Sequence record: PP047752
Direction: 5' to 3' (one strand)
From: Escherichia phage KEP2
Length of the DNA stretch: 64,000 bases
Notes under the pieces: model-generated
The model's database searches: none
What the model was told of the DNA's origin: nothing
Seen by the model: the letters and a program-made list of their open reading frames with translations, nothing else
In this document: positions 3,111 through 58,110 of the stretch, in pieces
Layout: each line of letters starts with the position of its first letter
How positions within the stretch are numbered: the first letter of the stretch is position 1
Program-made: the position numbers and the translations under genes

Positions 3111-4579
3111 TGGCAGGATTAACTACAACAGGATTACAAACTCTAAGATATCAGGAAATTTTTGATAATATCAAATCAAGACTTCTTAGAGATATTTCAC
3201 CCAACCTTGACGTTTCTGAAGATAGCCAATTAGGACTCTTCCTAGCTTCAATTGCAAGGTCTTTAGCAGATACTCATGAGATTCTATCAGAAATCTACGA
3301 TGGGGGTACAATTGATAAGGCTGAAGGCTTTAACCTTGATGATATCACAGCTTTAAATGCGGTATACAGATATGTTGCTCAGGCAACAAGAGGCCAAGTT
3401 GAGTTTACTGGAACGACTGGTGCTACCATTCCTTCAACAACAAGATTAAGAAGTACTGCCGGAAACATCTTTTACCCAGTTAATAATATTACCCTTACTC
3501 CATCATATTGTGTTGAAGCTATTCTTGAAGTTAACTCTTTACGAACTGATGCAGATTATGTTATTATTATTGATAACGTCATTTTCTCATATAAACCAAC
3601 CTCATCAGACACAATCACCACGCTTCTAACAAAATTATCAGAAGCTATTAATGGTGGTATTGTAGCAAAAGCAGAAGTCATTAATGATGGAGCCGCACTA
3701 AGAGTCTATAAAGACGAGGGCGATATCATTGCAAGAACAAACCCTATGGTTGTCACTGCAACAACGTTTCTGACCTTTACAAAAATTACAACTATTTCAG
3801 ATGTAGTAGCTGAAGAGGTTGGTGCTACCCCTGCTTTGGCTGGTACGCTTATTGAGATTGAGACAACTGTTGATGGTCTTGACAGTATTTATAACAGGTA
3901 TGACTTAACAACTGGTAGAAACGAAGAAACTGACACAGAACTTAGACAGAGATATTTAGAGTCCTTAGCAGTTACTGGTGTAGGGACTTTAGATGCAATT
4001 GTAGCTGCTGTTAAAAGAGTTCAAGGTGTCTCAGATGCTTCAGGTGTTGAGAATGATACTGAAGAGACAAGCTCAGAAGGTCTTCCACCAAAATCTTTTA
4101 AGATTGTTGTAGTTGGTGGTCAAAATGATAATGTTGCTCAAGCAATCTGGGATACAAAACCTGCTGGTATTAGGGCTTATGGCTCAATTTTTGGTACAGC
4201 CCATGATTTAGGTGGTTTGGCACATAATATTTATTTTAGCAGACCAACACCAAAATACGCATTTGTTAAAGTCTCTTACTCTTTATATGATGAAGAAAAC
4301 TTGACAATCCCTGAAGAGGATATCAGAGACAGCATTGTACAAGGTATTAATGCCTACGGAAGAACTCTTAAGGTTGGTAATGATGTTATTCCTAATAGAA
4401 TCTATGGGTATATCTATGACGTAATTAAAGGTATTGAGATTAATGAGGTTAAAGTAGCCTTATCAAACAGCCAATCAGTTCCACCTAGTGATGGGCAGTA
4501 TACTACAGCAAGAATTACTGTTGACGGTGACCAATATACTGTTTGGGAAAGCAGCCAGTATACTATCACTAAGGAGTAA
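3110..4579 (+). CDS. putative baseplate J-like protein
   Basis: 489 aa in conserved baseplate gene order before tail fibres. Confidence 0.4.
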
Positions 4580-12787: not shown

Positions 12788-13117
12788 TTAATCTGCCAAC
12801 CTTAAATTAAAATTAACACCAAATTTTTCACATACTTCCAACATATACTCAAGGGAGACATTACCAGTGAGGTGGATTATGTTGGATACACGAGCCTGAG
12901 AGATACCACAAATTTTAGCAACTTGCTCTTGAGAAAGACCTCTGGATTTAATCTCTCTCTTAAAACGATGTGCAACAAAATCTCTCATTTCGTCTACATC
13001 CATTGGACAAATATAACTCTCCATTTCAGCCTCTCTGTCAGCCTCCCAATCATCTTGTGGAGCATAAGGGTCAAAAACCTCATTCATCTTTCTTCTTCCG
13101 TTTGCGTGAAGTATCAA
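12788..13117 (-). CDS. putative HTH DNA-binding protein
   Basis: RGLSQEQVAKICGISQARVSNIIH resembles helix-turn-helix. Confidence 0.4.
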   Translation of the reverse strand: MILHANGRRKMNEVFDPYAPQDDWEADREAEMESYICPMDVDEMRDFVAHRFKREIKSRGLSQEQVAKICGISQARVSNIIHLTGNVSLEYMLEVCEKFGVNFNLRLAD

Positions 13118-19954: not shown

Positions 19955-20011
19955 TTTTACTCCCTCTAAAATCATTAACCTCATACATTACTGCAAAAAA
20001 TTATAAAAAGC

Positions 20012-20050
20012 AAGTTGACAATGTGCTTGACAAGGTGTTAATCTTTGCGA
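20012..20050 (+). promoter_or_regulatory. divergent promoter region with tandem TTGACA elements
   Basis: TTGACAatgtgcTTGACAaggtg in 227-bp AT-rich intergenic region between - strand polymerase and + strand operon; -10 not confidently placed. Confidence 0.3.
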
Positions 20051-20211
20051 AGTGGGTTTTTACTTAAAAGGTTACTTAACAGTTTAACTATACAGATACT
20101 TTAAAACTCTTAAAAGATTATTTAATAGCTTTTAAAAAGCTTTAAAGTATAACGTATAGAATACGTTAAGATAAAAGATTAAAACTTAATAGTTACTTAA
20201 AAGAGGCTTAC

Positions 20212-45632: not shown

Positions 45633-45660
45633 AAGGCTGCTTCGGCGGCCTTTTTTATTT
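45633..45660 (+). terminator. intrinsic terminator
   Basis: AGGCTGC-ttcg-GCGGCCT followed by TTTTTTATTT. Confidence 0.5.
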
Positions 45661-45717
45661 GTATTTTGTGCAGAGTGCTGTATAATTGTTGTCACGATAA
45701 ACTAAACAGGAGAACCA

Positions 45718-46266
45718 ATGAAGAAGTTGATTCTAGGTTTGTGCTTAATGTTTACAGCACACTTATCTTATGCAGTTGACTGCCCAGAGCTATCAATTAG
45801 CCAAAAAGTAAACATGCTAAAAGCTTACCAGTATGGTGAGAATAATATGGGTAAAGGTTGGGGTATCACTCTAGCTGCTATAGCCTTACAAGAGTCAGAG
45901 TTAGGTCTGAAGGTAGAGAATAAAAAGACCCATGACTATGGTATTTTCCAGAATCACTTGAAGACTGTTGTAAAGCGTAACAAAATCAGTCCTAATGTGG
46001 CTAAAAAGAAACTCTTAAAAGATTTTGACTATGCTGCAAAGGAAACACACAAAGAGCTTGAGTTTTGGGCGAAGGTACATGGTCAACCAAAGTCAAAGAA
46101 GACTTTACAAAAAGTTTTAGCATCATATAATGCTGGGTATTCGTACAAAATACCTAAAGCTAAGAAATACTCTCAAGATGTCTATAACAATATGAAAGTT
46201 ATTGCTCAATGTGAATTTGCAACAAACATTTCTAAGGTAAATCATGAAAAAATTAAGAAAGTCTGA
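45718..46266 (+). CDS. secreted protein, possible lytic transglycosylase-like
   Basis: Signal peptide MKKLILGLCLMFTAHLSYA; ALQESELG ... DYGIFQ resembles SLT catalytic ES...GLMQ pattern; weak. Confidence 0.35.
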   Translation: MKKLILGLCLMFTAHLSYAVDCPELSISQKVNMLKAYQYGENNMGKGWGITLAAIALQESELGLKVENKKTHDYGIFQNHLKTVVKRNKISPNVAKKKLLKDFDYAAKETHKELEFWAKVHGQPKSKKTLQKVLASYNAGYSYKIPKAKKYSQDVYNNMKVIAQCEFATNISKVNHEKIKKV

Positions 46267-47426: not shown

Positions 47427-47450
47427 AGGCTCCTTCGGGAGCCTTTTTCA
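47427..47450 (+). terminator. intrinsic terminator
   Basis: AGGCTCC-ttcg-GGAGCCT followed by TTTTT. Confidence 0.55.
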
Positions 47451-47467
47451 TTTCAGGAGATTGTTAA

Positions 47468-47815
47468 ATGACATTTAAAGAGTTCTGTCAAGCCACTTTC
47501 ATAATTGTTTTCTTAGTTGGAGCAGGTGTCTGGGGAGGATACTCTTACAGAGACTATCAAGTTGCTGAAGCTGAGTTAAATAATGAGAAACTAATAAGTG
47601 TTGCTAAAGATGCTTATCAGGAAGGTTTAGCCACACTCAGCGCCAATTACAAAAATGATTTGAAAGATGTGCTTGCTAAGAATAAGCATACAAAAGAGGT
47701 ACTAACGTATGAAAAGACTAAGCCAGAGTTTTATAATGTTTGTGTTACTGATAATTATGTCAGGGTGTTCAACGAACAAAGTGAACAGTACATTCAAAAA
47801 CTCCCAAGTAAGTGA
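47468..47815 (+). CDS. putative i-spanin (Rz-like)
   Basis: N-terminal TM helix FIIVFLVGAGVWGG then periplasmic helical domain; contains overlapping lipoprotein ORF. Confidence 0.4.
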   Translation: MTFKEFCQATFIIVFLVGAGVWGGYSYRDYQVAEAELNNEKLISVAKDAYQEGLATLSANYKNDLKDVLAKNKHTKEVLTYEKTKPEFYNVCVTDNYVRVFNEQSEQYIQKLPSK

Positions 47816-49692: not shown

Positions 49693-50478
49693 ATGGGTAT
49701 TGTAAAAATCATCAATGGGGATATCTTCTCCGCATTTGATAAAGGTAAGTTTGATATCATTGGTCACGGTTGCAACTGTATGAACTTAATGGGTGCAGGT
49801 ATCGCTGATAAGATTTCTAAACTTTACCCAAAAGCATATGAGACCGATACAGAAGTTTATCTGTATGCAGGTGGTATAGGCCACAAACCCTGTGAAAATT
49901 TACTAGGCAATTTCTCTGTAGCACGTTTAGAACAAGGCCGTATAGCTAACCTTTACACTCAGCTTAAGACTGGTAAAGATGCCCGATATAGTGCTTTAGA
50001 GTCATCTTTGAAACAGCTTAACAGATACTGTGAAGTCAATCAGTTGAAGAAAGTTGGGTTACCTATGATTGGTGCAGGTATCGGTGGACTAGACTCTCAA
50101 GCCGTCACAGTCATCATTAATCAGGTGATGAAGAGTGTAGATGTGTATCTGTATGTCTATGAAGGAGAGATGTACCACAAGTTACGCTCAGGTTGGAAGA
50201 ACTACTGTGAACCAGAATACTTTGCAGGTGTAGTAGTATTCACTAATGATGCAGTTACCCTCTTCAGACGAAGAAAAGGCAAGATACATCAAAGTAACCC
50301 TCCGGTTGAAAAGATGTCTCTAAGTAACGCTCTAGTTACCCACCTGTCGAAGAGCAATCACAGAATTGCAGTAACATTTGGCAGTGATGCAGATACATAT
50401 ATCTATGCAAGAACTGATGAGGATGTTGAGGAAATTTTCTCTTCACCGGAAGTAACCTTCTTAGACGCAAAGAACTAA
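49693..50478 (+). CDS. macro-domain-like protein (ADP-ribose binding/processing)
   Basis: NGDIF...DIIGHGCNCMNLMGAGIADKI ... VGLPMIGAGIGGLD parallels macro-domain GDIT...IVNAAN..GGGV ... FP.IS.G.YG pattern. Confidence 0.5.
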   Translation: MGIVKIINGDIFSAFDKGKFDIIGHGCNCMNLMGAGIADKISKLYPKAYETDTEVYLYAGGIGHKPCENLLGNFSVARLEQGRIANLYTQLKTGKDARYSALESSLKQLNRYCEVNQLKKVGLPMIGAGIGGLDSQAVTVIINQVMKSVDVYLYVYEGEMYHKLRSGWKNYCEPEYFAGVVVFTNDAVTLFRRRKGKIHQSNPPVEKMSLSNALVTHLSKSNHRIAVTFGSDADTYIYARTDEDVEEIFSSPEVTFLDAKN

Positions 50479-50551
50479 GAAACTCTGTAGAATATTCACA
50501 ATAGGTTAAGCCTTTCTTATCTGGTAAATTTTTCAGGTAAGGAGGGCTTTT

Positions 50552-50745
50552 TCATTTCAGGATTGTGCAGGTAGAGTTCTGGACAGAAATCTGTAGAGAA
50601 AATTTTGAACTCCAAAGAGAAAATTCATTTTCAAACTGTGCAGGTAATCTCCAAAGAGCTTTTTCATTTTCAAAACGTGCAGACCCCGCTCAGGTCGGGC
50701 AAGAAAAATCATTTTAGAATTGTGCAGGTAGGTGGGTGCAGGTGG
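50552..50745. repeat. four iteron-like repeats CATTT(T)CAnrAnTGTGCAGGTA
   Basis: Copies at ~50552, 50626, 50664 (degenerate) and 50710, plus GGTGGGTGCAGGTGGGG tail; non-coding. Confidence 0.5.
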
Positions 50746-50907
50746 GGATGTCGCCATTTCTCACAAGGCTACCACATCTGAAAAGAAAAGTCAACAGAAA
50801 AATTTGTAGCGGATTGAAAAATAATTCTTGATTGTAGTTCTGTTTTGTGGTAGTCGCGTGCGCCCGTTTCATTACAGCTTTTTGCAAAAATATTTTTAAA
50901 ATTCCTA

Positions 50908-50936
50908 TTGACTCTCTGACTATGGTTATTTAGTAT
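50908..50936 (+). promoter_or_regulatory. sigma70-like promoter TTGACT-17-TAGTAT
   Basis: Upstream of first gene of small-ORF array. Confidence 0.45.
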
Positions 50937-50986
50937 TTGCATCAGACAGGCAAACAAGCCTACTTCCTAAATTGGAGATTTAAAAA

Positions 50987-51193
50987 ATGATTTACAGCCG
51001 TGAATTGATGGTTACAACCAACGTTAATACAAAGGTAAAACGTTTTTACATGCAAGTGTGCGGCGCATGGCGTAGAATATCAGAAGCTGATTATTGCAAC
51101 TATGTAGAAACGGCAATCAATTCTAATTGCTACCTTACGAAGAATACAAAGCGACATATAAAACAGACAGCGGTTTACTATTACGATATATAA
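50987..51193 (+). CDS. small early-type protein (array gene 1)
   Basis: 68 aa; leader AAATTGGAGATTTAAAAAATG similar to cassette leader. Confidence 0.4.
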   Translation: MIYSRELMVTTNVNTKVKRFYMQVCGAWRRISEADYCNYVETAINSNCYLTKNTKRHIKQTAVYYYDI

Positions 51194-51200
51194 AAAGTAC

Positions 51201-51283
51201 TTTACAGGGGGCTTAAAAGCTGGTATCTTAAGCCCCAGATAAAGAGCTTTACTAAATTAACCCTTAAACTAGGAGATTCAAAA
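51201..51283 (+). promoter_or_regulatory. canonical promoter/stem-loop/leader cassette (copy a)
   Basis: TTTACA-17nt-TATCTT with spacer and -10 inside GGGGCTTAA...TTAAGCCCC hairpin, then AGATAAAGAGCTTTAC...CCTTAAACTAGGAGATTCAAAAATG. Confidence 0.55.
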
Positions 51284-51664
51284 ATGGCTTATCGTGCACC
51301 TAAATTCATCAACAAAGACAACTTTCGCAACGCACTGGAGAAGTCACTTGATGAAAATTTTAAAGGTAACATTATCGTTGTTCACGCATTCAATTTTAAG
51401 TATGATGTAAACGGGAATAGAATCAACCATTACACAGCAACCATGTTAGATGGTACGCTATCAAGTGAAAAAGCTGTACTGAATGCACTTGCAGGACGTG
51501 GTAAAAACCTGATAAGATGCGATAAGAGACGTTATCAGGGTGGCGCATATGGTTATGATGATGCTGTTTATCATCTTGAAAATATGGGCTATTCAGTGGA
51601 AAAAGCTGGAGCGTCTCAAATAATCGGCAGTGACGGCTATGTGACAATTTTCAAAATTAACTAA
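51284..51664 (+). CDS. small early-type protein (array gene 2)
   Basis: 126 aa, cassette-driven. Confidence 0.45.
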   Translation: MAYRAPKFINKDNFRNALEKSLDENFKGNIIVVHAFNFKYDVNGNRINHYTATMLDGTLSSEKAVLNALAGRGKNLIRCDKRRYQGGAYGYDDAVYHLENMGYSVEKAGASQIIGSDGYVTIFKIN

Positions 51665-51672
51665 TAAAGTAC

Positions 51673-51752
51673 TTTACAGGGGGCTTATAGTTCGATAAAG
51701 TAAGCCCCAGATAAAGAGCTTTACCACTAAATCCTAAATTGGAGATTCAAAA
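51673..51752 (+). promoter_or_regulatory. canonical cassette (copy b)
   Basis: TTTACA-GGGGGCTTATagttcgaTAAAGTAAGCCCC-AGATAAAGAGCTTTACC...AAATTGGAGATTCAAAAATG. Confidence 0.55.
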
Positions 51753-52043
51753 ATGGCTATTATTAAAAACGTTGTAATTCCTGCAAAAACTCGTGATGAC
51801 GCTCGCATCATGGCGAAAAAGTTAGGCGGGAAAGTGGTTGACAACGGAAAACAAACTGCTGTAAGGTGGAACGTGAAGGCGGATAAACAAATGAATTTAA
51901 AAAATTCACCAATAAACTTTTTTACATGTGTAAACACTATCGGGAAAACGAATGTATACACTAAAAAGGCATATATCAGACGCATCGCCATGACGTCACC
52001 TATTCGCACAATGAGAAGTCATGCAAAGATGAAAATTAAGTAA
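51753..52043 (+). CDS. small early-type protein (array gene 3)
   Basis: 96 aa, basic. Confidence 0.45.
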   Translation: MAIIKNVVIPAKTRDDARIMAKKLGGKVVDNGKQTAVRWNVKADKQMNLKNSPINFFTCVNTIGKTNVYTKKAYIRRIAMTSPIRTMRSHAKMKIK

Positions 52044-52051
52044 TAGAGTAC

Positions 52052-52133
52052 TTTACAGGGGGCTTAAAAGCTGATATCTTAAGCCCCAGATAAAGAGCTT
52101 TACCACTCAATCCTTAAACTAGGAGATTCAAAA
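52052..52133 (+). promoter_or_regulatory. canonical cassette (copy c)
   Basis: Near-identical to copy a (TTTACA...TATCTTAAGCCCC...CTAGGAGATTCAAAAATG). Confidence 0.55.
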
Positions 52134-52646
52134 ATGAAAACTGTAGACGCTACCTTTGAAGTTGTAAAAGAAAAATTTTCCATCATTTACGAAGCTGTCA
52201 ATTGCTACGAAGCAAGCCATAATCTTGATAATTGGAAGTTTACAGATGACCATCAAGGCGGTGTGACTATTAAAAACCCCAACTGTCAGCGTAATGGATT
52301 TAAATATGCAATTCCTTTACATTACAGCCTTAAACAGCTTTCAATTGACTATGCAAAACAAGGCCGGGAAAATCCATCGAAAGAGGCTTACATCAGCTTA
52401 CAGAAAGAACTAGAAAGAGATTTAGAGGCTTCAGAATATAACATCGCCGCGAAAGTTGTAGATGCAAACGGTAGCACGGTTTTAGAGAGTTTTTATATTG
52501 GTTATGCTTTCGATTGGTGCTACAGTGACGGCGATGATTTAGATGACAGACTAAAAGAGGAAGTGAACAACGCAGACGCAGAATCTGAAGTATTAGAACG
52601 CTTGGAAGCATTAAAAGATTCAGTGATGAATATCTTTAAGAACTAA
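52134..52646 (+). CDS. small early-type protein (array gene 4)
   Basis: 170 aa, acidic C-terminus. Confidence 0.45.
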   Translation: MKTVDATFEVVKEKFSIIYEAVNCYEASHNLDNWKFTDDHQGGVTIKNPNCQRNGFKYAIPLHYSLKQLSIDYAKQGRENPSKEAYISLQKELERDLEASEYNIAAKVVDANGSTVLESFYIGYAFDWCYSDGDDLDDRLKEEVNNADAESEVLERLEALKDSVMNIFKN

Positions 52647-52655
52647 ATAGACCTC

Positions 52656-52737
52656 TTTACACGGGGCTAACAAGCTGATATGATAGCCCCAGATAAAGAG
52701 ATTTATCAAATTAACCCTTAAACTAGGAGATTCTAAA
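52656..52737 (+). promoter_or_regulatory. canonical cassette (copy d)
   Basis: TTTACA-cGGGGCTaacaagctgaTATGATAGCCCC; -10 TATGAT; leader ...CTAGGAGATTCTAAAATG. Confidence 0.55.
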
Positions 52738-53034
52738 ATGAAATTATCAAATAAAGTTAGGGAAAACCTTAGCAAATTACTCAATAAAATTGATTTTATC
52801 GAGACATCAAGAAATAGTCATGATGTTATGGAATGGTTACACGGCAAAATAAAAGGCCGTCGTGTAGTGATTTGCTTATGGAACAGTTGCAGGGAGTATA
52901 AAAAACCTGTATTGCAAGTTAATATATACGATAATACTTTTAAAAGTCCTGTTAAATCTAAAAGTGATTTATTAGAATCTTATGAGATAACTGTAAATGG
53001 CAAGGTATCACGTAAAGAGGTAACACCATGTTAA
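52738..53034 (+). CDS. small early-type protein (array gene 5)
   Basis: 98 aa. Confidence 0.4.
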   Translation: MKLSNKVRENLSKLLNKIDFIETSRNSHDVMEWLHGKIKGRRVVICLWNSCREYKKPVLQVNIYDNTFKSPVKSKSDLLESYEITVNGKVSRKEVTPC

Positions 53035-53360
53035 TGATGGGTATCACTGCAATCATTGCCATTATAGCACTTTATAAGGCTTACAGCGCATATAATTTGG
53101 CAAGTAAGGCAATCACGCAGCAGGTCAATAATAACCTTGTAATGAGCTTTCTGGAGCGTTTAAGCGATGAACAAATAAAACGGTTAGAAATGAGCTTCAG
53201 ATTTCAATCAAAAACTTATCAAATCAGCGACATTTTCAAAGATGATTTTCAGCTTGTCGATGATTATAACTCTCTGATAAATGCTTTAAATATCAGTGAT
53301 TTAAAAGATTATCATGCTGTAATAGTTCAAGAATTGAGCAAACGAAAAAATTCCTCTTGA
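53028..53360 (+). CDS. small membrane protein (array gene 6)
   Basis: N-terminal TM helix MGITAIIAIIALY; ATG overlaps upstream stop. Confidence 0.4.
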   Translation: MLMMGITAIIAIIALYKAYSAYNLASKAITQQVNNNLVMSFLERLSDEQIKRLEMSFRFQSKTYQISDIFKDDFQLVDDYNSLINALNISDLKDYHAVIVQELSKRKNSS

Positions 53361-53370
53361 TTTTGGTTTT

Positions 53371-53448
53371 TAAAACAAGTAAATTACTAATCAACGGGAG
53401 GTAATAACCTCCCCACTAAGTAAAGTCCTTAAACTAGGAGATTCAAAA
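53371..53448 (+). promoter_or_regulatory. variant cassette (copy e)
   Basis: AAAACAAGTAAATTACTAATCAACGGGAGGtaataaCCTCCCCACTAAGTAAAGTCCTTAAACTAGGAGATTCAAAAATG; different hairpin, same 3' leader. Confidence 0.45.
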
Positions 53449-53721
53449 ATGTATACTACTAACAACGGTCGCACTTTGAACGTAACCCTGCGCCACTATG
53501 TGAACGGTGTAATGCACTTCGAGGATTTACAAGCCGAACAACATATCTTGGATTGGCAAGTAGCAGGACTCCAAAAAACTGCTACAGGATACGGGAAAAA
53601 GATTCCAACTAGTTGGAAAGTATACTACGAAGGGCGTTTGCGCAGAATTTATCAAGATGTATACAGTAATAGCGCATCAAGTTACATCATAGTAAAAGGT
53701 AAAAAGCTGCATTTAGTATAA
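53449..53721 (+). CDS. small early-type protein (array gene 7)
   Basis: 90 aa. Confidence 0.4.
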   Translation: MYTTNNGRTLNVTLRHYVNGVMHFEDLQAEQHILDWQVAGLQKTATGYGKKIPTSWKVYYEGRLRRIYQDVYSNSASSYIIVKGKKLHLV

Positions 53722-53726
53722 AGTAC

Positions 53727-53806
53727 TTTACAAGGGGCTTATAGTTCGATAAAGTAAGCCCCAGATAAAGAGCTTTATCACTCAATCCTAAATTGGAGAT
53801 TCTAAA
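53727..53806 (+). promoter_or_regulatory. canonical cassette (copy f)
   Basis: TTTACAaGGGGCTTATagttcgaTAAAGTAAGCCCC-AGATAAAGAGCTTTATC...GGAGATTCTAAAATG. Confidence 0.55.
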
Positions 53807-54211
53807 ATGGCTATTAATAACCGTGAGTTATCAATCTTAAAAGCACGTTTGACCGTTAACCGGATTAATGTTATTACATCATCAGCACCGGATGAGACAT
53901 TGCACAACATTATCGGGAAGATTCAAAGTGTTATCTTAGACGTTGAAAACGTAAAAAACTCATTGGCTGACGTTGCAGCAGGTATCACGCTAGACGGCGC
54001 ACAATATGAAATGGCTGACATGTTAGGCAAATCTAAGGTAATGAATAAAGAGCTTGATTTAAAAATGTTTCGTTTTGCTGTTAAAGTGTGGCTATCTGTC
54101 GAGTATGACGCAAATTTTGCAATCGCTGACTTTTTCGCAACATGGTTGCAACGTAATTTAACAAATCATGATTTTCGTGATATCTGCGATATAATTTACG
54201 CAGAACTCTAA
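53807..54211 (+). CDS. small early-type protein (array gene 8)
   Basis: 134 aa. Confidence 0.4.
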   Translation: MAINNRELSILKARLTVNRINVITSSAPDETLHNIIGKIQSVILDVENVKNSLADVAAGITLDGAQYEMADMLGKSKVMNKELDLKMFRFAVKVWLSVEYDANFAIADFFATWLQRNLTNHDFRDICDIIYAEL

Positions 54212-54218
54212 AAAACTG

Positions 54219-54312
54219 TTGACACGGATTTTTAGATAGATTAAATTACGCATTAACGGGGAGGGAATGAACTTCCCCACTAAATAAAGTCCTTAAACTA
54301 GGAGATTCTAGA
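54219..54312 (+). promoter_or_regulatory. variant cassette (copy g) with explicit TTGACA-17-TAAATT promoter
   Basis: TTGACA 54219-54224, TAAATT 54242-54247, then GGGGAGGGaatgaaCTTCCCC hairpin and CCTTAAACTAGGAGATTCTAGAATG leader. Confidence 0.5.
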
Positions 54313-54510
54313 ATGGCTATCATTAACGGCTTAAACATTGAAACTACTCACATCAAAGATATCAAAGTTGGCGATATAGTCCTTTTTCACGGCGTAGAAA
54401 AAACTGTTACTGCAAAGGATATTAAAGAGGATTCTTTCATGGGTAGGACTCTCTTCGGTGATTCTTATTGCTTAGGTTATCTTGCAGTTTTAAAAGTTGT
54501 CAAACATTAA
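54313..54510 (+). CDS. small early-type protein (array gene 9)
   Basis: 65 aa. Confidence 0.4.
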   Translation: MAIINGLNIETTHIKDIKVGDIVLFHGVEKTVTAKDIKEDSFMGRTLFGDSYCLGYLAVLKVVKH

Positions 54511-54523
54511 CTAATAAAGTACT

Positions 54524-54603
54524 TTACAAGGGGCTTATAGTTCGATAAAGTAAGCCCCAGATAAAGAGCTTTACCACTAAATCCTAAACTGGAGATTCAA
54601 AAA
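54524..54603 (+). promoter_or_regulatory. canonical cassette (copy h)
   Basis: Same as copy f/b family. Confidence 0.55.
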
Positions 54604-55167
54604 ATGAAATGCTATCACGGTACTACCCTCAAAAACTTTGTAAACCTGCTGAATGGTGGCGACAAGCCGGAAGGTATCTGGAACTGCTCCTACATGGACG
54701 ATTGTTTCTATGTTTACCCAATGAATAAGATTATCAAAACGGAATGTCTGGAAGATGAGGAAGATTCTTACATCCGTGAACGCTGCATTCAAAACGCTTT
54801 AGAATCGGGGCTTATCACGGCAGCTTTCCAAATGGAAACGCAGGAAATAATTGTCATTGAAATGGATATCCCAGAGGAAGAACTTGAGGACGATTATTCT
54901 TGCGACAACATGAGCGATATCGCCAGCTTTACCGGACACTTTGATAAGGATTGGATTATCGGCCTTCACTCGACGAAATTTAGTGCGATGTATGCGCCTT
55001 TCTTTGTACCGGATGCAACTAATCGCAATTTAGGCTATGTTGACGATGATTTGTTAACTATGGCGAAAATTGTACAGAATAGCGGTGATTCTTCTGTGTA
55101 TTGTGACCTACTGGATAAAATCACGGCAAACATCACAGAGCGCAATTTAAAAGACTTTTTAGGTTAA
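54604..55167 (+). CDS. acidic early-type protein (array gene 10)
   Basis: 187 aa, strongly D/E-rich. Confidence 0.45.
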   Translation: MKCYHGTTLKNFVNLLNGGDKPEGIWNCSYMDDCFYVYPMNKIIKTECLEDEEDSYIRERCIQNALESGLITAAFQMETQEIIVIEMDIPEEELEDDYSCDNMSDIASFTGHFDKDWIIGLHSTKFSAMYAPFFVPDATNRNLGYVDDDLLTMAKIVQNSGDSSVYCDLLDKITANITERNLKDFLG

Positions 55168-55194
55168 TCAGTACAAAGACACCAACTTCCAACT

Positions 55195-55230
55195 TAAGGC
55201 CCGTACAGGGCCATTTAGAGGGCTTCAATC
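55195..55230 (+). promoter_or_regulatory. divergent cassette (copy i): GGCCCgtacaGGGCC hairpin + TAGAGGG SD
   Basis: No canonical leader; hairpin directly upstream of gene. Confidence 0.3.
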
Positions 55231-55464
55231 ATGCTTACAACCATTTACCTCATCCTTTCCATTTGTAATGGTCATTCATGCGATTTTAAAGGGCTTGAGG
55301 AGTTTACAGGGAGTAAAGAAAATGTTATTCATGCCTGTCAGATAGCAAGGCAAGACTATCCCGCCAGTGATGATATACAATGTTACTTTAAGACAGAAGA
55401 TGAAGACGGCGTCTATTTTGACAGTGTCGATGGTCAATATGAAATTATCATTGAAAAAGACTAG
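55231..55464 (+). CDS. small early-type protein (array gene 11)
   Basis: 77 aa. Confidence 0.4.
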   Translation: MLTTIYLILSICNGHSCDFKGLEEFTGSKENVIHACQIARQDYPASDDIQCYFKTEDEDGVYFDSVDGQYEIIIEKD

Positions 55465-55477
55465 ACAAGCCTGATAA

Positions 55478-55551
55478 AAGTCTGTAAATTGTCAATCAAC
55501 GGGAGGGATGACCTCCTACTAAACAAAATCCTTAAACTAGGAGATTCGAAA
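55478..55551 (+). promoter_or_regulatory. variant cassette (copy j)
   Basis: CTGTAAATTGTCAATCAACGGGAGGGatgaCCTCCtACTAAACAAAATCCTTAAACTAGGAGATTCGAAA. Confidence 0.45.
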
Positions 55552-55893
55552 ATGGCTTATGTAACCGTAATTACCAATAAAGAAGATTCATCTTGGTCAA
55601 CTCAAGTAAGTGACAAGATGTCACCTATGCAGTGCCTAAAATACTTTGAGCAATGGAACAAAGGTGAGGAAACAAGCCCCTTTCAAGTAATGCAGATTAT
55701 CCATACAGACAACGAAGGGAATAAAACTGTTTTGAATAGTGAGTACTATGCAACCAGATTCGAAACGAGAAGTAAAGCAATGAAGCTCTTACGTGAATCC
55801 GGTTATTCTCATATTGCCGCGCTAATCTGGGATGACCTCCTAAAAAGTCAGCGTATCAGTTATGTAAAACCTGAAAAAATATTCATCAGTTAA
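55552..55893 (+). CDS. small early-type protein (array gene 12)
   Basis: ATG directly after cassette leader; ORF-track upstream extension (55489) runs through the cassette and is rejected. Confidence 0.45.
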   Translation: MAYVTVITNKEDSSWSTQVSDKMSPMQCLKYFEQWNKGEETSPFQVMQIIHTDNEGNKTVLNSEYYATRFETRSKAMKLLRESGYSHIAALIWDDLLKSQRISYVKPEKIFIS

Positions 55894-55931
55894 TCAACAA
55901 CTTACAAAAAACTTTTAAAAAAGTGTTGACA

Positions 55932-56113
55932 ATGCCCCTTGACATTGGTAACTTTGTTCGAGGGGGTTTATCTAAAAGGGATTAACTTAAAAGATTCTTT
56001 ATAGATAAACTTAAAAAATTGCTTGCAATCAGATATCAAAACAAGTAAATTACTAATCAACGGGAGGGATAACCTCCCCACTAAGTAAAGTCCTTAAACT
56101 AGGAGATTCAAAA
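55932..56113 (+). promoter_or_regulatory. extended variant cassette (copy k) with tandem TTGACA boxes
   Basis: GTTGACAATGCCCCTTGACA (same arrangement as 20012-20031) then AAAACAAGTAAATTACTAATCAACGGGAGGGataaCCTCCCC...CTAGGAGATTCAAAAATG. Confidence 0.45.
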
Positions 56114-56644
56114 ATGAACAAATTTCAAGCTATCAATTACATCCGCTCAAATAGTGTTATGTCAAAGCCTGTTAAAGACACCTATGAATTTCGTTGCAAT
56201 GGTGTACACTTTGCAACCATCACCAAATCAGAAAACGGGGCTTATTACGTTCATCGCCGTAATGTTGCAACCGTTGTAGTCTCTCACTTTATGCAAGCTG
56301 TCGCGGAACTTCTCCCGATGTTTTTAGGGCTTTACTTAGATGAGTGTAAGCACATTCATAACCATGTTAAAAGCCTTTTAAACGGTTATAAAATGGCTTA
56401 TGAGCGTTCTATCAAGTCCTTAAACAAGTTTTACAACGCACCTGAAAACACCGTATCAATGGCATACGCTGTAAAGGGTGAGGCGGTGAGTCTCTTCGAA
56501 GTGGAAGAAATCGAGCTTTATGACCATCGCCCCAATGGTTACGCTAAAACTCTCGGTGAAGGTTTAACGTTCAATATCAAGAACTTAGAAAAAACTTTAA
56601 AAGATATTGAAAAAGATATTGACGAGACAATCAAAAGTCTGTAA
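56114..56644 (+). CDS. early-type protein (array gene 13)
   Basis: 176 aa. Confidence 0.45.
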   Translation: MNKFQAINYIRSNSVMSKPVKDTYEFRCNGVHFATITKSENGAYYVHRRNVATVVVSHFMQAVAELLPMFLGLYLDECKHIHNHVKSLLNGYKMAYERSIKSLNKFYNAPENTVSMAYAVKGEAVSLFEVEEIELYDHRPNGYAKTLGEGLTFNIKNLEKTLKDIEKDIDETIKSL

Positions 56645-56649
56645 ATTGT

Positions 56650-56712
56650 CAATCAACGGGGAGGGAATGACCTTCCCCACTAAATAAAGTCCTTAAACTA
56701 GGAGATTCTAAA
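56650..56712 (+). promoter_or_regulatory. variant cassette (copy l)
   Basis: TTGTCAATCAACGGGGAGGGaatgaCCTTCCCCACTAAATAAAGTCCTTAAACTAGGAGATTCTAAAATG. Confidence 0.45.
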
Positions 56713-56961
56713 ATGGCAACTATCCGCGCAATTGTAAATTCTTATGGCTGCTACACTCTGGACGTTAAATTTGATATAGGTGGGACCGATGAGTGTTTCG
56801 AACTGGTGAAAACAGTCATTAAACAAGTTATCCCAGACTATAACCCTACTGATGACTTCTGGAAAGATGCAGTAAAAGAGGCGTTGAACGATGAATATCA
56901 TTACCATTATTGGGGTGATTTGATTGTCTCCCTGTACTACAATAAACAAGGTTGCAACTAA
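56713..56961 (+). CDS. small early-type protein (array gene 14)
   Basis: 82 aa. Confidence 0.4.
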   Translation: MATIRAIVNSYGCYTLDVKFDIGGTDECFELVKTVIKQVIPDYNPTDDFWKDAVKEALNDEYHYHYWGDLIVSLYYNKQGCN

Positions 56962-56998
56962 TCGGCGCAACGGGGCAAATAGCCCCAGATACCTTTAT

Positions 56999-57021
56999 AG
57001 CCCCTTAAATGGGGCTTTTTT
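56999..57021 (+). terminator. intrinsic terminator ending the small-gene array
   Basis: AGCCCC-ttaaat-GGGGCT followed by TTTTT; preceded by degenerate cassette-like hairpin GGGGCaaatAGCCCCAGATACC. Confidence 0.55.
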
Positions 57022-57374
57022 ACGTCTTATCAAATCCTATACAATCCTTTTCCTTTCCTTTCCAGAGTCTTACTAGACCTTAAAAGCAATAACTCTATAG
57101 CTTACTCTATAACCTTTTATCAAATCAACTTAAATATAAGCCCATAACCCGAAAGGGAAGGGCAACCGTTTAAACGCTCTATAAAGCTCTATAACAGCCT
57201 TATCAACCTAACTTAAGGGATTGCATTAACTCACCCTTAAAAGCCCTTTATAAAGCTTCCTAGAGCCTTAAAAGAATCTTATAAGGGTGTAAGCTTTATT
57301 ATCTCGTTAGTATCTTGTGAACTACTAAAAAGGGGCTTGTTAGTTACTAAAAAGTATGTTATAGGGGCTATAAA

Positions 57375-57516
57375 GTTACGTAAAAGTAGCTTAAAAGTTA
57401 CGTAAAAGTAGCTTAAAAGTTACGTAAAAGTAGCTTAAAAGTTACGTAAAAGTAGCTTAAAAGTTACGTAAAAGTAGCTTAAAAGTTACGTAAAAGTAGC
57501 TTAAAAGTTACGTAAA
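57375..57516. repeat. 22-bp direct tandem repeat GTTACGTAAAAGTAGCTTAAAA x6 plus partial
   Basis: Six perfect units 57375-57506 and a 10-bp partial; each unit has palindromes TTACGTAA and AGCT. Confidence 0.9.
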
Positions 57517-57573
57517 TGCTAGCCCCCTTAACATTTTCTTAACAATCCCTACATAGTTATGCTTTTAAGGCAC

Positions 57574-58110
57574 TTGTTAGCAACTTGTTAAATCTCTGTT
57601 AAAACCATGTAAAAGCCTTGTAAGAGTCTTTGGCATAGCCTTTAAAGCCCCTGAAAAGCCTTATAAAGAGGTGTCTACATAGTTGGGGTGCAATTACTAG
57701 GGAGAGACTAAAAAGAGCTTATAAGGAGTTATAAAGAGCTTTTAAAAGGGCTATTTAAAAGGTCACTAAGAGGGAAAGGGAACGATAAGAAAAGAGATAG
57801 TGACCATGTTAATAGCTTGTTAAAAAGGTTAAACACTTGTTAGGAACTTGTTAATTATCTTAACAAAATAACTCTTTAAAATTAACTTGTTAGCTCTTGT
57901 TAGTCATCTGTTAAGCCTCTGTAAAGACTATGTATCAACTGTTAAGAAACTGTTACCCTCTTGTTAAAACTGTTAAGAATCTGTTAAGACCTTTGAAGAG
58001 ATGTTAAGAAGATGTATCAACTGTTAAGAGATTGTTAATGATATTTTAAAATTCTGCAAAGGGGATGTTACAGGGATGTTAAGGGCTACCAAGCAGATAT
58101 ACATCTTCTA
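57574..58110. repeat. dense cluster of short direct motifs (C/T)TGTTAA(G/A), more than 20 copies
   Basis: e.g. ACTTGTTAGCAACTTGTTAAATCTCTGTTAAAACC; ATGTATCAACTGTTAAGA occurs twice (~57925 and ~58008); non-coding. Confidence 0.7.

What the first reader, a model, noticed from the sequence alone, without database searches (positions are those of the whole stretch)
50552..50745. Four iteron-like repeats CATTTTCA..TGTGCAGGTA upstream of the early-gene array
Four copies of a ~22-bp motif lie in a non-coding stretch immediately after the macro-domain gene and before the TTGACT-17-TAGTAT promoter of the array. They match neither sigma70 hexamers nor a DnaA box, so a regulatory site set (repressor/activator, or a phage-specific promoter class) is plausible. 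The two reverse-strand ORFs overlapping this stretch look spurious.
Basis: seen in the sequence. Interest (0 to 1): 0.5.

Follow-up and report, generated by a model that had tools for sequence, protein, structure and literature searches.

The report
Conserved four-repeat DNA-binding array, Felix-O1-like phage
A non-coding stretch of this Felix O1-type phage genome carries four copies of a 22-base motif that is conserved across the whole phage subfamily and found almost nowhere else in the genome, so it is very probably a docking platform for a DNA-binding protein, but its job (gene control or replication start) is still unknown.

Summary
Four same-strand copies of TCATTT(T)CAnnnTGTGCAGgta lie at 50552, 50625, 50664 and 50709. 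They sit in the 508-bp gap between the macro-domain gene with its terminator and the first early promoter.

The window is a Felixounavirus. The array has the same position, orientation and core in Suspvirus, Mooglevirus, Kolesnikvirus and one further lineage, with 3-5 copies. TCATTTT-N6-GTGCA is nearly invariant even where the neighbouring protein is only 30% identical.

In three complete genomes the motif occurs only in this array. Mordin has one extra significant copy, overlapping the -35/spacer of a sigma70-like promoter after rIIB. It is therefore not a genome-wide promoter class.

It is not coding, not a structured RNA and not in the terminal repeat, which lies about 7 kb further right. 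It is absent from bacterial genomes and plasmids.

My best reading is an operator-type binding-site array for an unidentified, probably phage-encoded, protein controlling transcription at the border of the right-terminal early-gene array (about 0.4). The main rival is replication-origin iterons (about 0.3). A T5-like injection-stop signal is a long shot. The papers I could search do not describe it.

The parts
50508..50552 (+). Intrinsic terminator of the macro-domain gene. Its T-tract forms the A/T tract of repeat copy 1.
   Evidence: Terminator scan, 17-pair stem followed by a T run. Conserved in the alignment of 21 relatives.
50547..50573 (+). Repeat copy 1: CTTTT-TCATTTCAGGATTGTGCAGGTA
   Evidence: 33.0 bits on the weight matrix. 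Present in all 31 arrays compared.
50586..50604 (+). Second local motif TCTGTAGAGAAA between copies 1 and 2. It is a tandem pair in Felix O1; here the first copy has decayed.
   Evidence: It is not enriched across the genome.
50620..50646 (+). Repeat copy 2: AAAAT-TCATTTTCAAACTGTGCAGGTA. This copy is missing in Si3, finno and L186.
   Evidence: 34.9 bits. Natural three-copy variants are shown.
50659..50685 (+). Repeat copy 3: CTTTT-TCATTTTCAAAACGTGCAGACC
   Evidence: 32.1 bits.
50704..50730 (+). Repeat copy 4: AAAAA-TCATTTTAGAATTGTGCAGGTA. Its left flank GGTCGGGCAAG is nearly identical to a Kolesnikvirus unit.
   Evidence: 31.7 bits.
50731..50785 (.). Variable segment after copy 4. In this window it is a G-rich haplotype with a partial extra GTGCAGGTG at 50736-50744. 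In Felix O1, KhF1, SUSP2, Mordin and Pr103Blw it is a C-rich tract, which in Pr103Blw is the only canonical G-quadruplex motif of the genome (minus strand).
50786..50856 (+). Almost invariant A/T-rich block AAAAGTCAA.AGAAAAATTTGTAGCGGATTGAAAAATAATTCTTGATT...TGTTTTGTGGTAGTCG. It holds a weak promoter-like TTGATT-17-TAGTCG.
   Evidence: Column conservation across 21 Felixounavirus, Suspvirus and Mooglevirus sequences. Reading it as a promoter is inference only.
50867..50887 (+). Degenerate fifth motif copy TTTCATTACAGCTTTTTGCAA, about 20 bp upstream of the -35 of the first early promoter.
   Evidence: Member of repeat family D1 at 64% identity. Block 1 is conserved and block 2 has decayed in relatives.
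50908..50936 (+). First promoter of the early-gene array, TTGACT-17-TAGTAT.
   Evidence: Promoter scan. Some genes in this region of Felix O1 (13, 16, 20-22) peak at 5 min by RT-PCR (PMC3185647).
45650..45686 (+). Solitary outlying motif copy directly after the rIIB terminator. It overlaps the -35 and spacer of a sigma70-like promoter (TTGTAT-16-TATAAT, with GTGCAG-N7-TATAAT).
   Evidence: 13.5 bits here, which is borderline. It scores 24.2-25.3 bits at the homologous site in Mordin, Moogle-like contigs and L289, where shuffle maxima were at most 18.5.

Best explanation
The four repeats are docking sites for one sequence-specific DNA-binding protein, which is unidentified and probably phage-encoded. 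Each site has two conserved blocks, TCATTTT and GTGCA. Their centres are about 12 bp apart, so they face the same side of the helix. A short A/T tract and a G/C-rich block precede the core.

Three to five sites in one orientation would assemble a multi-protein complex on the DNA. The position is just downstream of the terminator that ends the long rightward operon and upstream of the promoters that open the right-terminal array of small early genes.

The most likely role is transcription control at this border. That could mean repressing or activating the first early promoter(s), or insulating the early array from the operon on its left. The same protein would also act on the promoter downstream of rIIB, where a single site covers the -35 and spacer.

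What is shown:
- The sites exist.
- They are under strong purifying selection.
- They are nearly unique in the genome.
- They are non-coding and not RNA-structured.
- The extra site overlaps a promoter.

What is inferred:
- That a protein binds them.
- Which protein it is.
- That the outcome is transcriptional.
For: 1. Copy number, orientation, register and position are conserved in 31 distinct arrays from Felixounavirus, Suspvirus, Mooglevirus and Kolesnikvirus, with no insertions or deletions in the core. In the 12 copies from three genera used to build the matrix, positions T6, A8, T9-T11 and G19-A23 are invariant. Across the 31 arrays, copy-specific differences are conserved between genera, so each site evolves under its own constraint.

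2. The array is 89% identical to SUSP2. The flanking macro gene is 73% identical and the downstream gene 63%. The core is still recognisable in phiEa21-4, whose macro protein is only 30% identical.

3. Whole-genome matrix scans of Pr103Blw, phiEa21-4 and Mordin find only the array copies. Mordin has one further site at 24.2 bits, where shuffle maxima were at most 18.5.

4. That extra site lies immediately after the rIIB terminator and covers the -35 and spacer of TTGAAA-16-TATAAT. The geometry GTGCAG-N7-TATAAT is the same in Mordin, L014, L289 and this window. This is the classic position of an operator.

5. A degenerate copy sits about 20 bp upstream of the first early promoter.

6. There is no Rfam match, and RNA folding gives z-scores of -0.2 and -0.9. 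There is no conserved reading frame.

7. There is no similar DNA in 5,426 E. coli genomes or 72,556 plasmids. A two-copy pattern scan of 185,579 bacterial species genomes found only unrelated repeats.
Against: - The four array copies lie 180-360 bp upstream of the first strong early promoter and overlap no convincing promoter themselves.
- The other promoters of the early array carry no copy, so one array cannot simply switch the whole array off.
- The site is asymmetric, unlike typical operators of dimeric helix-turn-helix repressors.
- The only recognisable regulator tested, a Cro/C1-type HTH protein at window 12791-13087 (minus strand), has no detectable homologue in phiEa21-4, which does have the array.
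- The outlying promoter copy is only borderline in Felixounavirus itself (13.5-16.8 bits) and absent in phiEa21-4.
- There are no transcript or binding data.
Confidence: 0.4

Rival explanations
1. Replication-origin iterons. The repeats bind an initiator or organiser protein. Unwinding or R-loop priming then occurs in the adjacent A/T-rich and G-quadruplex-capable DNA, helped by the neighbouring promoters.
For: - There are three to five direct, asymmetric sites of about 22 bp in one orientation, in one of the largest non-coding gaps of the genome, at an essentially unique locus.
- An almost invariant A/T-rich block and strong promoters follow the array.
- The only canonical G4 motif of the Pr103Blw genome abuts copy 4.
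- In lineage L182, five copies are followed directly by A/T-rich TTAACA repeats with an 11-bp period, which is an iterons-plus-unwinding-element layout.
- In Kolesnikvirus and L182 the second block reads as a one-mismatch DnaA box.
Against: - No initiator-like protein was recognised. The ten array neighbours tested have no Pfam family and only PHROGs of unknown function. Ten proteins of the replication module gave only one HTH hit. This search was not exhaustive.
- The most A/T-rich 150 bp of the genome lies elsewhere, between the DNA polymerase gene and the divergent operon, and has its own repeats and palindrome.
- The A/T-rich stretch beside the array ranks only about eighth.
- Spacing is irregular at 73/39/45 bp, and copy 2 is dispensable in nature.
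- Third-codon-position skew shows no step at the array.
- The phage has a T7-type primase-helicase and PolA replisome, which in T7 needs promoters rather than iterons (my own knowledge).
- The extra copy inside a promoter fits a transcription factor better.
Confidence: 0.3
2. A T5-like injection-stop or pause signal. The right genome end enters first. Entry halts at the array, so that only the roughly 6.5-kb terminal block of early genes is expressed before the rest of the DNA comes in.
For: - The array lies 6.7-6.9 kb (7.6-7.8% of the genome) from the right end defined by the annotated 581-bp terminal repeat of Pr103Blw. This is exactly at the inner border of the array of small genes, each with its own promoter, which are transcribed toward that end.
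- The T5 iss also lies about 8% in, in a conserved untranslated repeat region bordering the pre-early genes, and contains DnaA boxes including TTATGCACA (bioRxiv 10.1101/866236).
- The Kolesnikvirus and L182 versions of the motif contain CTATGCACA.
Against: - No two-step DNA transfer is reported for Felix O1-like phages in the papers I could search.
- The array lacks the inverted repeats, palindromes and paired boxes 3 bp apart of the T5 iss, and it is not inside the terminal repeat.
- In this phage the DnaA-box match is only 6 of 9.
- Which end enters first is unknown.
- The mechanism of the T5 iss is itself unproven.
Confidence: 0.06
3. Binding sites for a conserved host protein (DnaA, or another nucleoid or transcription factor of Enterobacterales) that the phage recruits or titrates.
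For: - The hosts span Escherichia, Salmonella, Shigella, Citrobacter and Erwinia, yet the core is shared.
- The DnaA-box-like CTATGCACA is present in two lineages.
Against: - The part that is invariant across genera (TCATTTT, GTGCA) leaves out the TTAT half of a DnaA box.
- The bases after GTGCA differ by genus (GGTA versus TAG). That pattern fits a co-evolving phage protein better than an invariant host protein.
- No similar sequence was found in E. coli genomes.
- By eye and from memory only, I saw no convincing match to the CRP, Fur, IHF, Fis, LexA, ArgR or sigma54 consensus.
Confidence: 0.1
4. A class of phage-specific promoters, or four tandem weak sigma70 promoters.
For: - Copies 1 and 2 can be read as TTTTCA-17-TAGAGT and AATTCA-17-TAATCT.
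- The outlying copy is part of a genuine-looking promoter.
Against: - The motif is not found upstream of other genes in three whole genomes.
- The putative -10 positions are not conserved between copies or genera, and phiEa21-4 has none.
- GTGCAG-N7-TAnnnT is not enriched (27 hits against 18 expected, and only one with 0 mismatches).
Confidence: 0.03
5. Functionless remnants of duplicated terminator-promoter junctions left behind when small genes were lost from the modular early array.
For: - Copy 1 and the outlying copy both start in a terminator T-tract.
- The terminator at 47427-47444 is followed by the same 16 nt as copy 1, TTTTTCATTTCAGGAG, where it serves as a ribosome-binding region.
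- The early array is built from repeated promoter and terminator modules (PMC3185647).
Against: - The array is more conserved than the flanking genes.
- Core positions stay invariant across genera whose macro proteins are only 30% identical.
- Spacing is fixed within each genus.

Neutral remnants would have decayed.
Confidence: 0.07

Closest known systems
Iterons of phage lambda ori and of iteron plasmids (F RepE, R6K pi, pPS10 RepA)
   Same: There are three to five direct repeats of about 20 bp in one orientation at a single locus, next to A/T-rich DNA and promoters. The site is asymmetric and two-part, like monomer-bound plasmid iterons.
   Different: No initiator gene was recognised nearby or elsewhere. 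Spacing is irregular. The most A/T-rich region of the genome is elsewhere. One extra copy sits inside a promoter. Replication start was not tested.
Operator clusters of phage regulators (for example lambda OR/OL, or TF1 sites near SPO1 early promoters)
   Same: Several copies of one site are clustered in the control region of early genes. One copy overlaps the -35 and spacer of a promoter.
   Different: The sites are asymmetric direct repeats rather than dyads. The array copies lie 180-360 bp from the nearest strong promoter. No regulator has been assigned.
Injection stop signal (iss) region of T5-like phages
   Same: It is a conserved untranslated repeat region about 8% in from a genome end, at the inner border of the first-expressed small genes. 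DnaA-box-like 9-mers are present in some lineages.
   Different: The T5 iss lies in a ~10-kb terminal repeat, is about 1.2 kb long, is full of inverted repeats and palindromes, and has eight boxes in pairs 3 bp apart. The array here has none of these. Two-step entry is unknown for Felix O1-like phages.
DnaA box clusters (oriC and DnaA-regulated promoters)
   Same: The reverse strand of block 2 ends in TGCACA. In Kolesnikvirus and L182 it is CTATGCACA, which is 8 of 9 to TTWTNCACA.
   Different: In this phage it is ACCTGCACA, only 6 of 9. The second invariant block, TCATTTT, is not part of a DnaA box.

Membership tests
Iteron-type replication origin | Three or more direct repeats of about 17-22 bp, in the same orientation, at one locus | tested here: met
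   Four copies here and 3-5 in relatives, all on one strand.
Iteron-type replication origin | An adjacent, easily melted A/T-rich unwinding element | tested here: inconclusive
   A/T-rich blocks follow the array, but they rank about eighth in the genome. The top-ranked region is the DNA-polymerase upstream gap. Lineage L182 has A/T-rich repeats with an 11-bp period next to its array.
Iteron-type replication origin | A cognate initiator protein, usually encoded at or near the iterons | tested here: inconclusive
   The ten neighbouring proteins have no Pfam family and PHROGs of unknown function only. Ten replication-module proteins gave one HTH hit and no Rep-, O- or DnaA-like family. The proteome was not searched exhaustively.
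Iteron-type replication origin | Replication actually initiates there | not testable with these tools
   Third-position skew shows no step at the array, but such skew is uninformative in phages.
Operator array of a transcription regulator | Sites overlap or adjoin promoter core elements | tested here: inconclusive
   This holds for the outlying copy, which covers the -35 and spacer. It does not hold for the four array copies.
Operator array of a transcription regulator | A regulator encoded by the phage and conserved together with the sites | tested here: not met
   This applies to the one candidate found. The Cro/C1 HTH protein has no homologue in phiEa21-4, which carries the array. Other candidates were not tested.
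Phage-specific promoter class | The motif recurs upstream of many co-regulated genes across the genome | tested here: not met
   Only the array scores above shuffles in Pr103Blw and phiEa21-4. In Mordin it is the array plus one site.
Phage-specific promoter class | A fixed distance to a -10-like element or transcription start | tested here: not met
   No conserved -10-like hexamer follows the array copies in any genus. No start-site data are available.
DnaA box cluster | A 9-mer matching TTWTNCACA | tested here: not met
   In this window the 9-mer is ACCTGCACA or GTCTGCACG, which is 6 of 9. It is 8 of 9 in phiEa21-4 and part of L182.
T5-type injection stop signal | Untranslated conserved repeat region at the inner border of the terminal, first-expressed genes, about 8% from an end | tested here: met
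   7.6-7.8% from the right end of Pr103Blw.
T5-type injection stop signal | Inverted repeats or palindromes with paired DnaA boxes, lying within a long terminal repeat | tested here: not met
   No significant inverted repeats were found in the array. The terminal repeat is only 581 bp and lies 6.3 kb away.
T5-type injection stop signal | Two-step DNA transfer | not testable with these tools
   No report was found in the searched literature.
Structured non-coding RNA or CRISPR-like mini-array | A conserved RNA structure, family match, or regular repeat-spacer period | tested here: not met
   No Rfam match at E<=1. Fold z-scores are -0.18 and -0.88. The period is irregular.
Small protein-coding gene | A reading frame conserved among relatives | tested here: not met
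   Repeat spacing changes by non-multiples of 3 between genera. Annotated ORFs differ in strand and position between records.

The most novel reading that the evidence does not exclude
The array is a cis-acting stop or pause signal for genome entry. It would define a first-step transfer of the right-terminal ~7.5% of the genome, which holds the small early (host-takeover) genes. Felix O1-like myoviruses would then use a T5-like two-step injection. The stop might work through a membrane-associated DNA-binding protein such as DnaA.
Probability: 0.06. Interest if true: 0.8.

Novelty: new member of a known kind. Interest (0 to 1): 0.42.

Why it matters
Felix O1-type phages are classical Salmonella typing phages and are widely used biocontrol and therapy candidates. 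How they time their transcription and where they start replication are both unknown. The original genome paper says explicitly that temporal regulation is not understood (PMC3185647).

This array is the most sharply defined non-coding element conserved across the subfamily. It gives a concrete handle. A pull-down with about 190 bp of DNA should identify the binding protein. A clean deletion should show whether the array controls early-gene expression, replication initiation or DNA entry.

It also matters for engineering, because this intergenic gap should not be treated as a neutral insertion site.

Tried and rejected
1. Terminal repeat or packaging site. I suspected this because several records and contigs end in this gap (KhF1, FSL SP-010, SP-107, IMG/VR contigs). 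It is rejected. The annotated 581-bp terminal repeat of Pr103Blw maps to window ~57510-58090. The contig breaks coincide with the variable, G4-capable tract, and the KhF1 sequence becomes full of Ns right after it.

2. Structured RNA. There was no Rfam hit and no fold signal.

3. Coding repeats. Rejected on frame grounds.

4. Genome-wide promoter motif. Rejected. The second local motif CTRTAGAGA is also not enriched.

5. Host or plasmid origin of the sequence. There was no BLAST match.

6. Occurrence outside Ounavirinae.
- The single-copy pattern scan gave mostly chance hits.
- The two-copy scan of bacterial genomes gave only unrelated tandem or coding repeats.
- The relaxed metagenome scan was swamped by chance hits and added only L289.
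- Distant macro-domain loci L163 and L164 have no array.

7. Assigning a binding protein. The neighbouring proteins are uninformative, and the XRE HTH protein is not co-conserved with the array.

8. Skew-based origin mapping. Uninformative.

9. Literature.
- Whichard 2010 and Villegas 2009 do not mention the array.
- The Felixounavirus comparative paper gave no hits for 'repeat' or 'intergenic'.
- The main text of the PhageMaP Bas63 paper gives no intergenic result for Bas63.
- The phiEa21-4 genome paper (PMC2663227) and the PhageMaP supplements were not available.

Full report
**What the window is.** A 2.1-kb piece around the finding matches 247 phage records. The closest are Escherichia phages vB_EcoM_P54, Shy and SME50 at about 98% identity, and all hits belong to the Felix O1 group (Felixounavirus, Ounavirinae).

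Pr103Blw is a relative whose ends were defined with PhageTerm. Its record annotates a 581-bp direct terminal repeat at both ends (PMC8303462). I used it as a map:
- A long rightward operon runs from the DNA-polymerase divergent gap to the macro-domain gene.
- Next come a terminator and a non-coding gap of about 520 bp.
- About 6 kb of small genes follow, many with their own promoter, leader and terminator.
- The right terminal repeat closes the genome.

The terminal repeat maps to window ~57510-58090. The window therefore spans the junction of the two genome ends. The finding lies about 7 kb inside the right end.

**The observation.**
- 50552 TCATTTCAGGATTGTGCAGGTA
- 50625 TCATTTTCAAACTGTGCAGGTA
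- 50664 TCATTTTCAAAACGTGCAGACC
- 50709 TCATTTTAGAATTGTGCAGGTA

The repeat finder recovers them as one family spaced 73, 39 and 45 bp apart. The consensus with up to 3 mismatches hits twice against 0.01 expected.

A weight matrix built from 12 copies in three genera scores them at 31.7-34.9 bits. The next best site in the window scores 15.2, and shuffled genomes reach at most 15.6.

The flanks are as described:
- macro-domain gene at 49693-50478
- terminator at 50508-50549
- TTGACT-17-TAGTAT at 50908-50936
- first small gene at 50987

**Not coding, not RNA.** Records annotate different small ORFs over this stretch, on either strand. The repeat spacing is 39/45 in Felixounavirus, 41/45 in Mooglevirus and 37/37/39 in Kolesnikvirus, so no frame is conserved. 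Rfam finds nothing at E<=1. Neither strand folds better than shuffles, with z-scores of -0.18 and -0.88.

**Conservation.** A BLAST search with the 512-bp gap finds 288 records. Erwinia phages of the genus Kolesnikvirus match only the part that holds the repeats.

I compared 31 distinct arrays from GenBank and IMG/VR:
- All lie directly after the macro-gene terminator and on the transcribed strand.
- All have 4 copies, except Si3 and finno, which have 3 because copy 2 is replaced.
- There are no insertions or deletions inside the core.
- Copy-specific differences are shared between genera, so the copies are not being homogenised. Each is kept by selection.

Position by position, in the 12 copies from three genera that built the matrix, T6, A8, T9-T11 and G19-A23 of the 27-mer are invariant. 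That gives TCATTTT-N6-GTGCA.

Each core is preceded by a 5-nt A/T tract and a G/C-rich block, such as CTCCAAAGAG or GGTCGGGCAAG. In Kolesnikvirus the 37-39-bp units abut each other.

Identity of the array against its flanks:

| Relative | Array | Macro gene | Downstream gene |
|---|---|---|---|
| SUSP2 | 89% nt | 73% nt | 63% nt |
| phiEa21-4 | cores still obvious | 30% aa | not compared |

A further lineage, IMG/VR contig 3300045988_063805 (locus L182), has five copies of TCATTTTAAAAACGTGCATAGG after its own macro gene.

**Distribution.**
- Whole-genome scans of Pr103Blw and phiEa21-4 find only the four array copies above background.
- A matrix built without Mooglevirus copies finds exactly five sites in the whole Mordin genome. 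Four are the array copies at 28.8-31.6 bits. One site scores 24.2 bits, where shuffle maxima were at most 18.5.
- A two-copy pattern finds 31 IMG/VR contigs, almost all of 51-94 kb, the size expected for Ounavirinae genomes or large fragments of them.
- In 185,579 bacterial species genomes the same pattern finds only unrelated tandem or coding repeats.
- There is no BLAST similarity in E. coli genomes or plasmids.

The motif is therefore a locus-specific element of this phage subfamily. It is not a promoter class and not a borrowed host sequence.

**The fifth site.** The extra Mordin site lies immediately after the rIIB terminator. It covers the -35 and spacer of a good sigma70-type promoter, TTGAAA-16-TATAAT, with GTGCAG exactly 7 nt before the -10. 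The same arrangement is seen in Moogle-like contigs, in metagenome locus L289 and, in weaker form, in this window at 45650-45686 (TTGTAT-16-TATAAT, 13.5 bits).

This is where operators usually sit. It is the main reason I rank a transcription factor above a replication initiator.

The array copies themselves have no conserved -10-like element in any register. A degenerate copy lies about 20 bp upstream of the -35 of the first early promoter.

**The rest of the gap.**
- Right after copy 4 comes a segment with two haplotypes. This window, Shy and finno carry a G-rich version. Felix O1, KhF1, SUSP2, Mordin and Pr103Blw carry a C-rich tract, which in Pr103Blw is the only canonical G-quadruplex motif of the genome.
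- An almost invariant A/T-rich block follows at 50786-50856, and then the early promoter.
- In L182 the array is followed by A/T-rich TTAACA repeats with an 11-bp period.

This layout of repeats, A/T-rich DNA, R-loop- or G4-prone DNA and promoters resembles an origin. That is the main rival explanation.

Against it:
- The most A/T-rich 150 bp of the genome is the gap upstream of the DNA polymerase gene, which has its own repeats and a 27-nt near-palindrome.
- No initiator-like protein was recognised among 20 proteins tested.
- Copy 2 is dispensable in nature.
- Third-position skew shows no step at the array.

**Who binds?** This is unknown. The one recognisable regulator, a 99-aa Cro/C1-type HTH protein at window 12791-13087 on the minus strand, has no homologue in phiEa21-4. 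It is therefore unlikely to be the conserved partner.

On the other strand, block 2 ends in TGCACA. In Kolesnikvirus and L182 it reads CTATGCACA, one mismatch from the DnaA box TTWTNCACA. In this phage it is ACCTGCACA, 6 of 9.

The bases after GTGCA differ by genus, while the hosts' DnaA is conserved. I therefore favour a co-evolving phage protein, but DnaA is not excluded.

**The T5 parallel.** The T5 injection stop signal is a conserved untranslated repeat region with DnaA boxes. It lies about 8% from the left end, at the inner border of the pre-early genes (bioRxiv 10.1101/866236). The array here lies 7.6-7.8% from the right end, at the inner border of the early array.

The detailed anatomy differs: there are no palindromes and no paired boxes, and the array is not in the terminal repeat. 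No two-step entry is reported for this group. I keep this as the low-probability but most novel reading.

**Literature.**
- The Felix O1 genome paper lists only exact repeats of at least 24 bp, none of them in this gap. It states that temporal regulation is not understood. Its RT-PCR places genes 13, 16 and 20-22 in the 5-minute class (PMC3185647).
- The wV8 paper does not mention the array.
- A Felixounavirus comparative paper gave no hits for 'repeat' or 'intergenic'.
- The main text of the PhageMaP Bas63 study gives no intergenic result for Bas63.

**Verdict.** The element is real, strongly conserved and apparently undescribed. My confidence that it is a protein-binding-site array is about 0.75. 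The rough split on function is:
- transcription control at the operon / early-array border: ~0.4
- replication-origin iterons: ~0.3
- binding of a host factor: ~0.1
- functionless remnants: ~0.07
- T5-like injection stop: ~0.06
- promoters: ~0.03

It is a new member of a familiar kind of element, of moderate interest, and it can be tested directly with simple experiments.

Noticed in passing
window 50731-50785; Pr103Blw 81755 (locus L009): The segment right after repeat copy 4 exists in two haplotypes among close relatives. The C-rich version is the only canonical G-quadruplex motif (minus strand, GGGGAGAGGGGGAGTAAGAGGGGGAGAGGGG) in the 88-kb Pr103Blw genome. This window carries the other, G-rich-on-plus-strand version.
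   Followed up: partly
KhF1 record ends (L003, L005); FSL SP-010 and SP-107; IMG/VR loci L141, L149, L150, L157: Several isolate records and metagenome contigs break inside this intergenic gap. The KhF1 sequence becomes full of Ns directly after the C-rich tract. This looks like a sequencing or assembly trouble spot, or a strain-variable spot, rather than a physical genome end.
   Followed up: partly
window ~57510-58090: The 581-bp direct terminal repeat annotated in Pr103Blw maps here, so the window spans the junction of the two genome ends. Genes on both sides are transcribed toward the repeat.
   Followed up: partly
window 19960-20210: The gap between the DNA polymerase gene and the divergent operon is the most A/T-rich 150 bp of the genome (79%). 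It holds tandem TTGACAATGTG/TTGACAAGGTG, CTTAAAAG-type repeats and a 27-nt near-palindrome. It is an alternative candidate for the replication origin or for divergent early promoters.
   Followed up: partly
window 47427-47470: The terminator AGGCTCCTTCGGGAGCCT is followed by TTTTTCATTTCAGGAG, the same 16 nt that begin repeat copy 1. Here it serves as the ribosome-binding region of the next gene. This hints that the motif's first block may derive from terminator tails.
   Followed up: no
window 50950-57400; Mordin record repeat_region features: Many genes of the right-terminal array share a near-identical leader (TCCTAAACTGGAGATTCAAAAATG) and combined promoter/terminator hairpins. Mordin annotates the 14-bp leader repeat at eleven genes.
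   Followed up: no
L182 617-755 (IMG/VR 3300045988_063805): A divergent Ounavirinae-like lineage has five motif copies followed by four 11-bp-period and three 20-bp-period A/T-rich TTAACA repeats. The stretch includes TCATTCACA, which is identical to the E. coli oriC R5M DnaA box (that identity is from my own memory).
   Followed up: partly
window 12791-13087 (minus strand): A 99-aa Cro/C1-type helix-turn-helix protein (Pfam HTH_3, E=5e-10) is encoded in the leftward operon that also carries the ligase and thymidylate synthase genes. It is present in Felixounavirus and Mooglevirus, but tblastn does not detect it in phiEa21-4.
   Followed up: partly
window 50586-50604; Felix O1 (L135) ~1095-1120: A second local motif, TCTGTAGAGAAA, is tandemly duplicated between copies 1 and 2. 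Related TRTAGAG elements follow copy 4 and precede the TTGATT promoter-like site. It is not enriched elsewhere in the genome.
   Followed up: partly
Mordin 3689-4237 (L309); window gene starting at 45719: The gene driven by the promoter that carries the outlying motif copy encodes a protein with a signal-peptide-like start. In Mordin it is annotated as RegB-like with a lysozyme-like domain.
   Followed up: no
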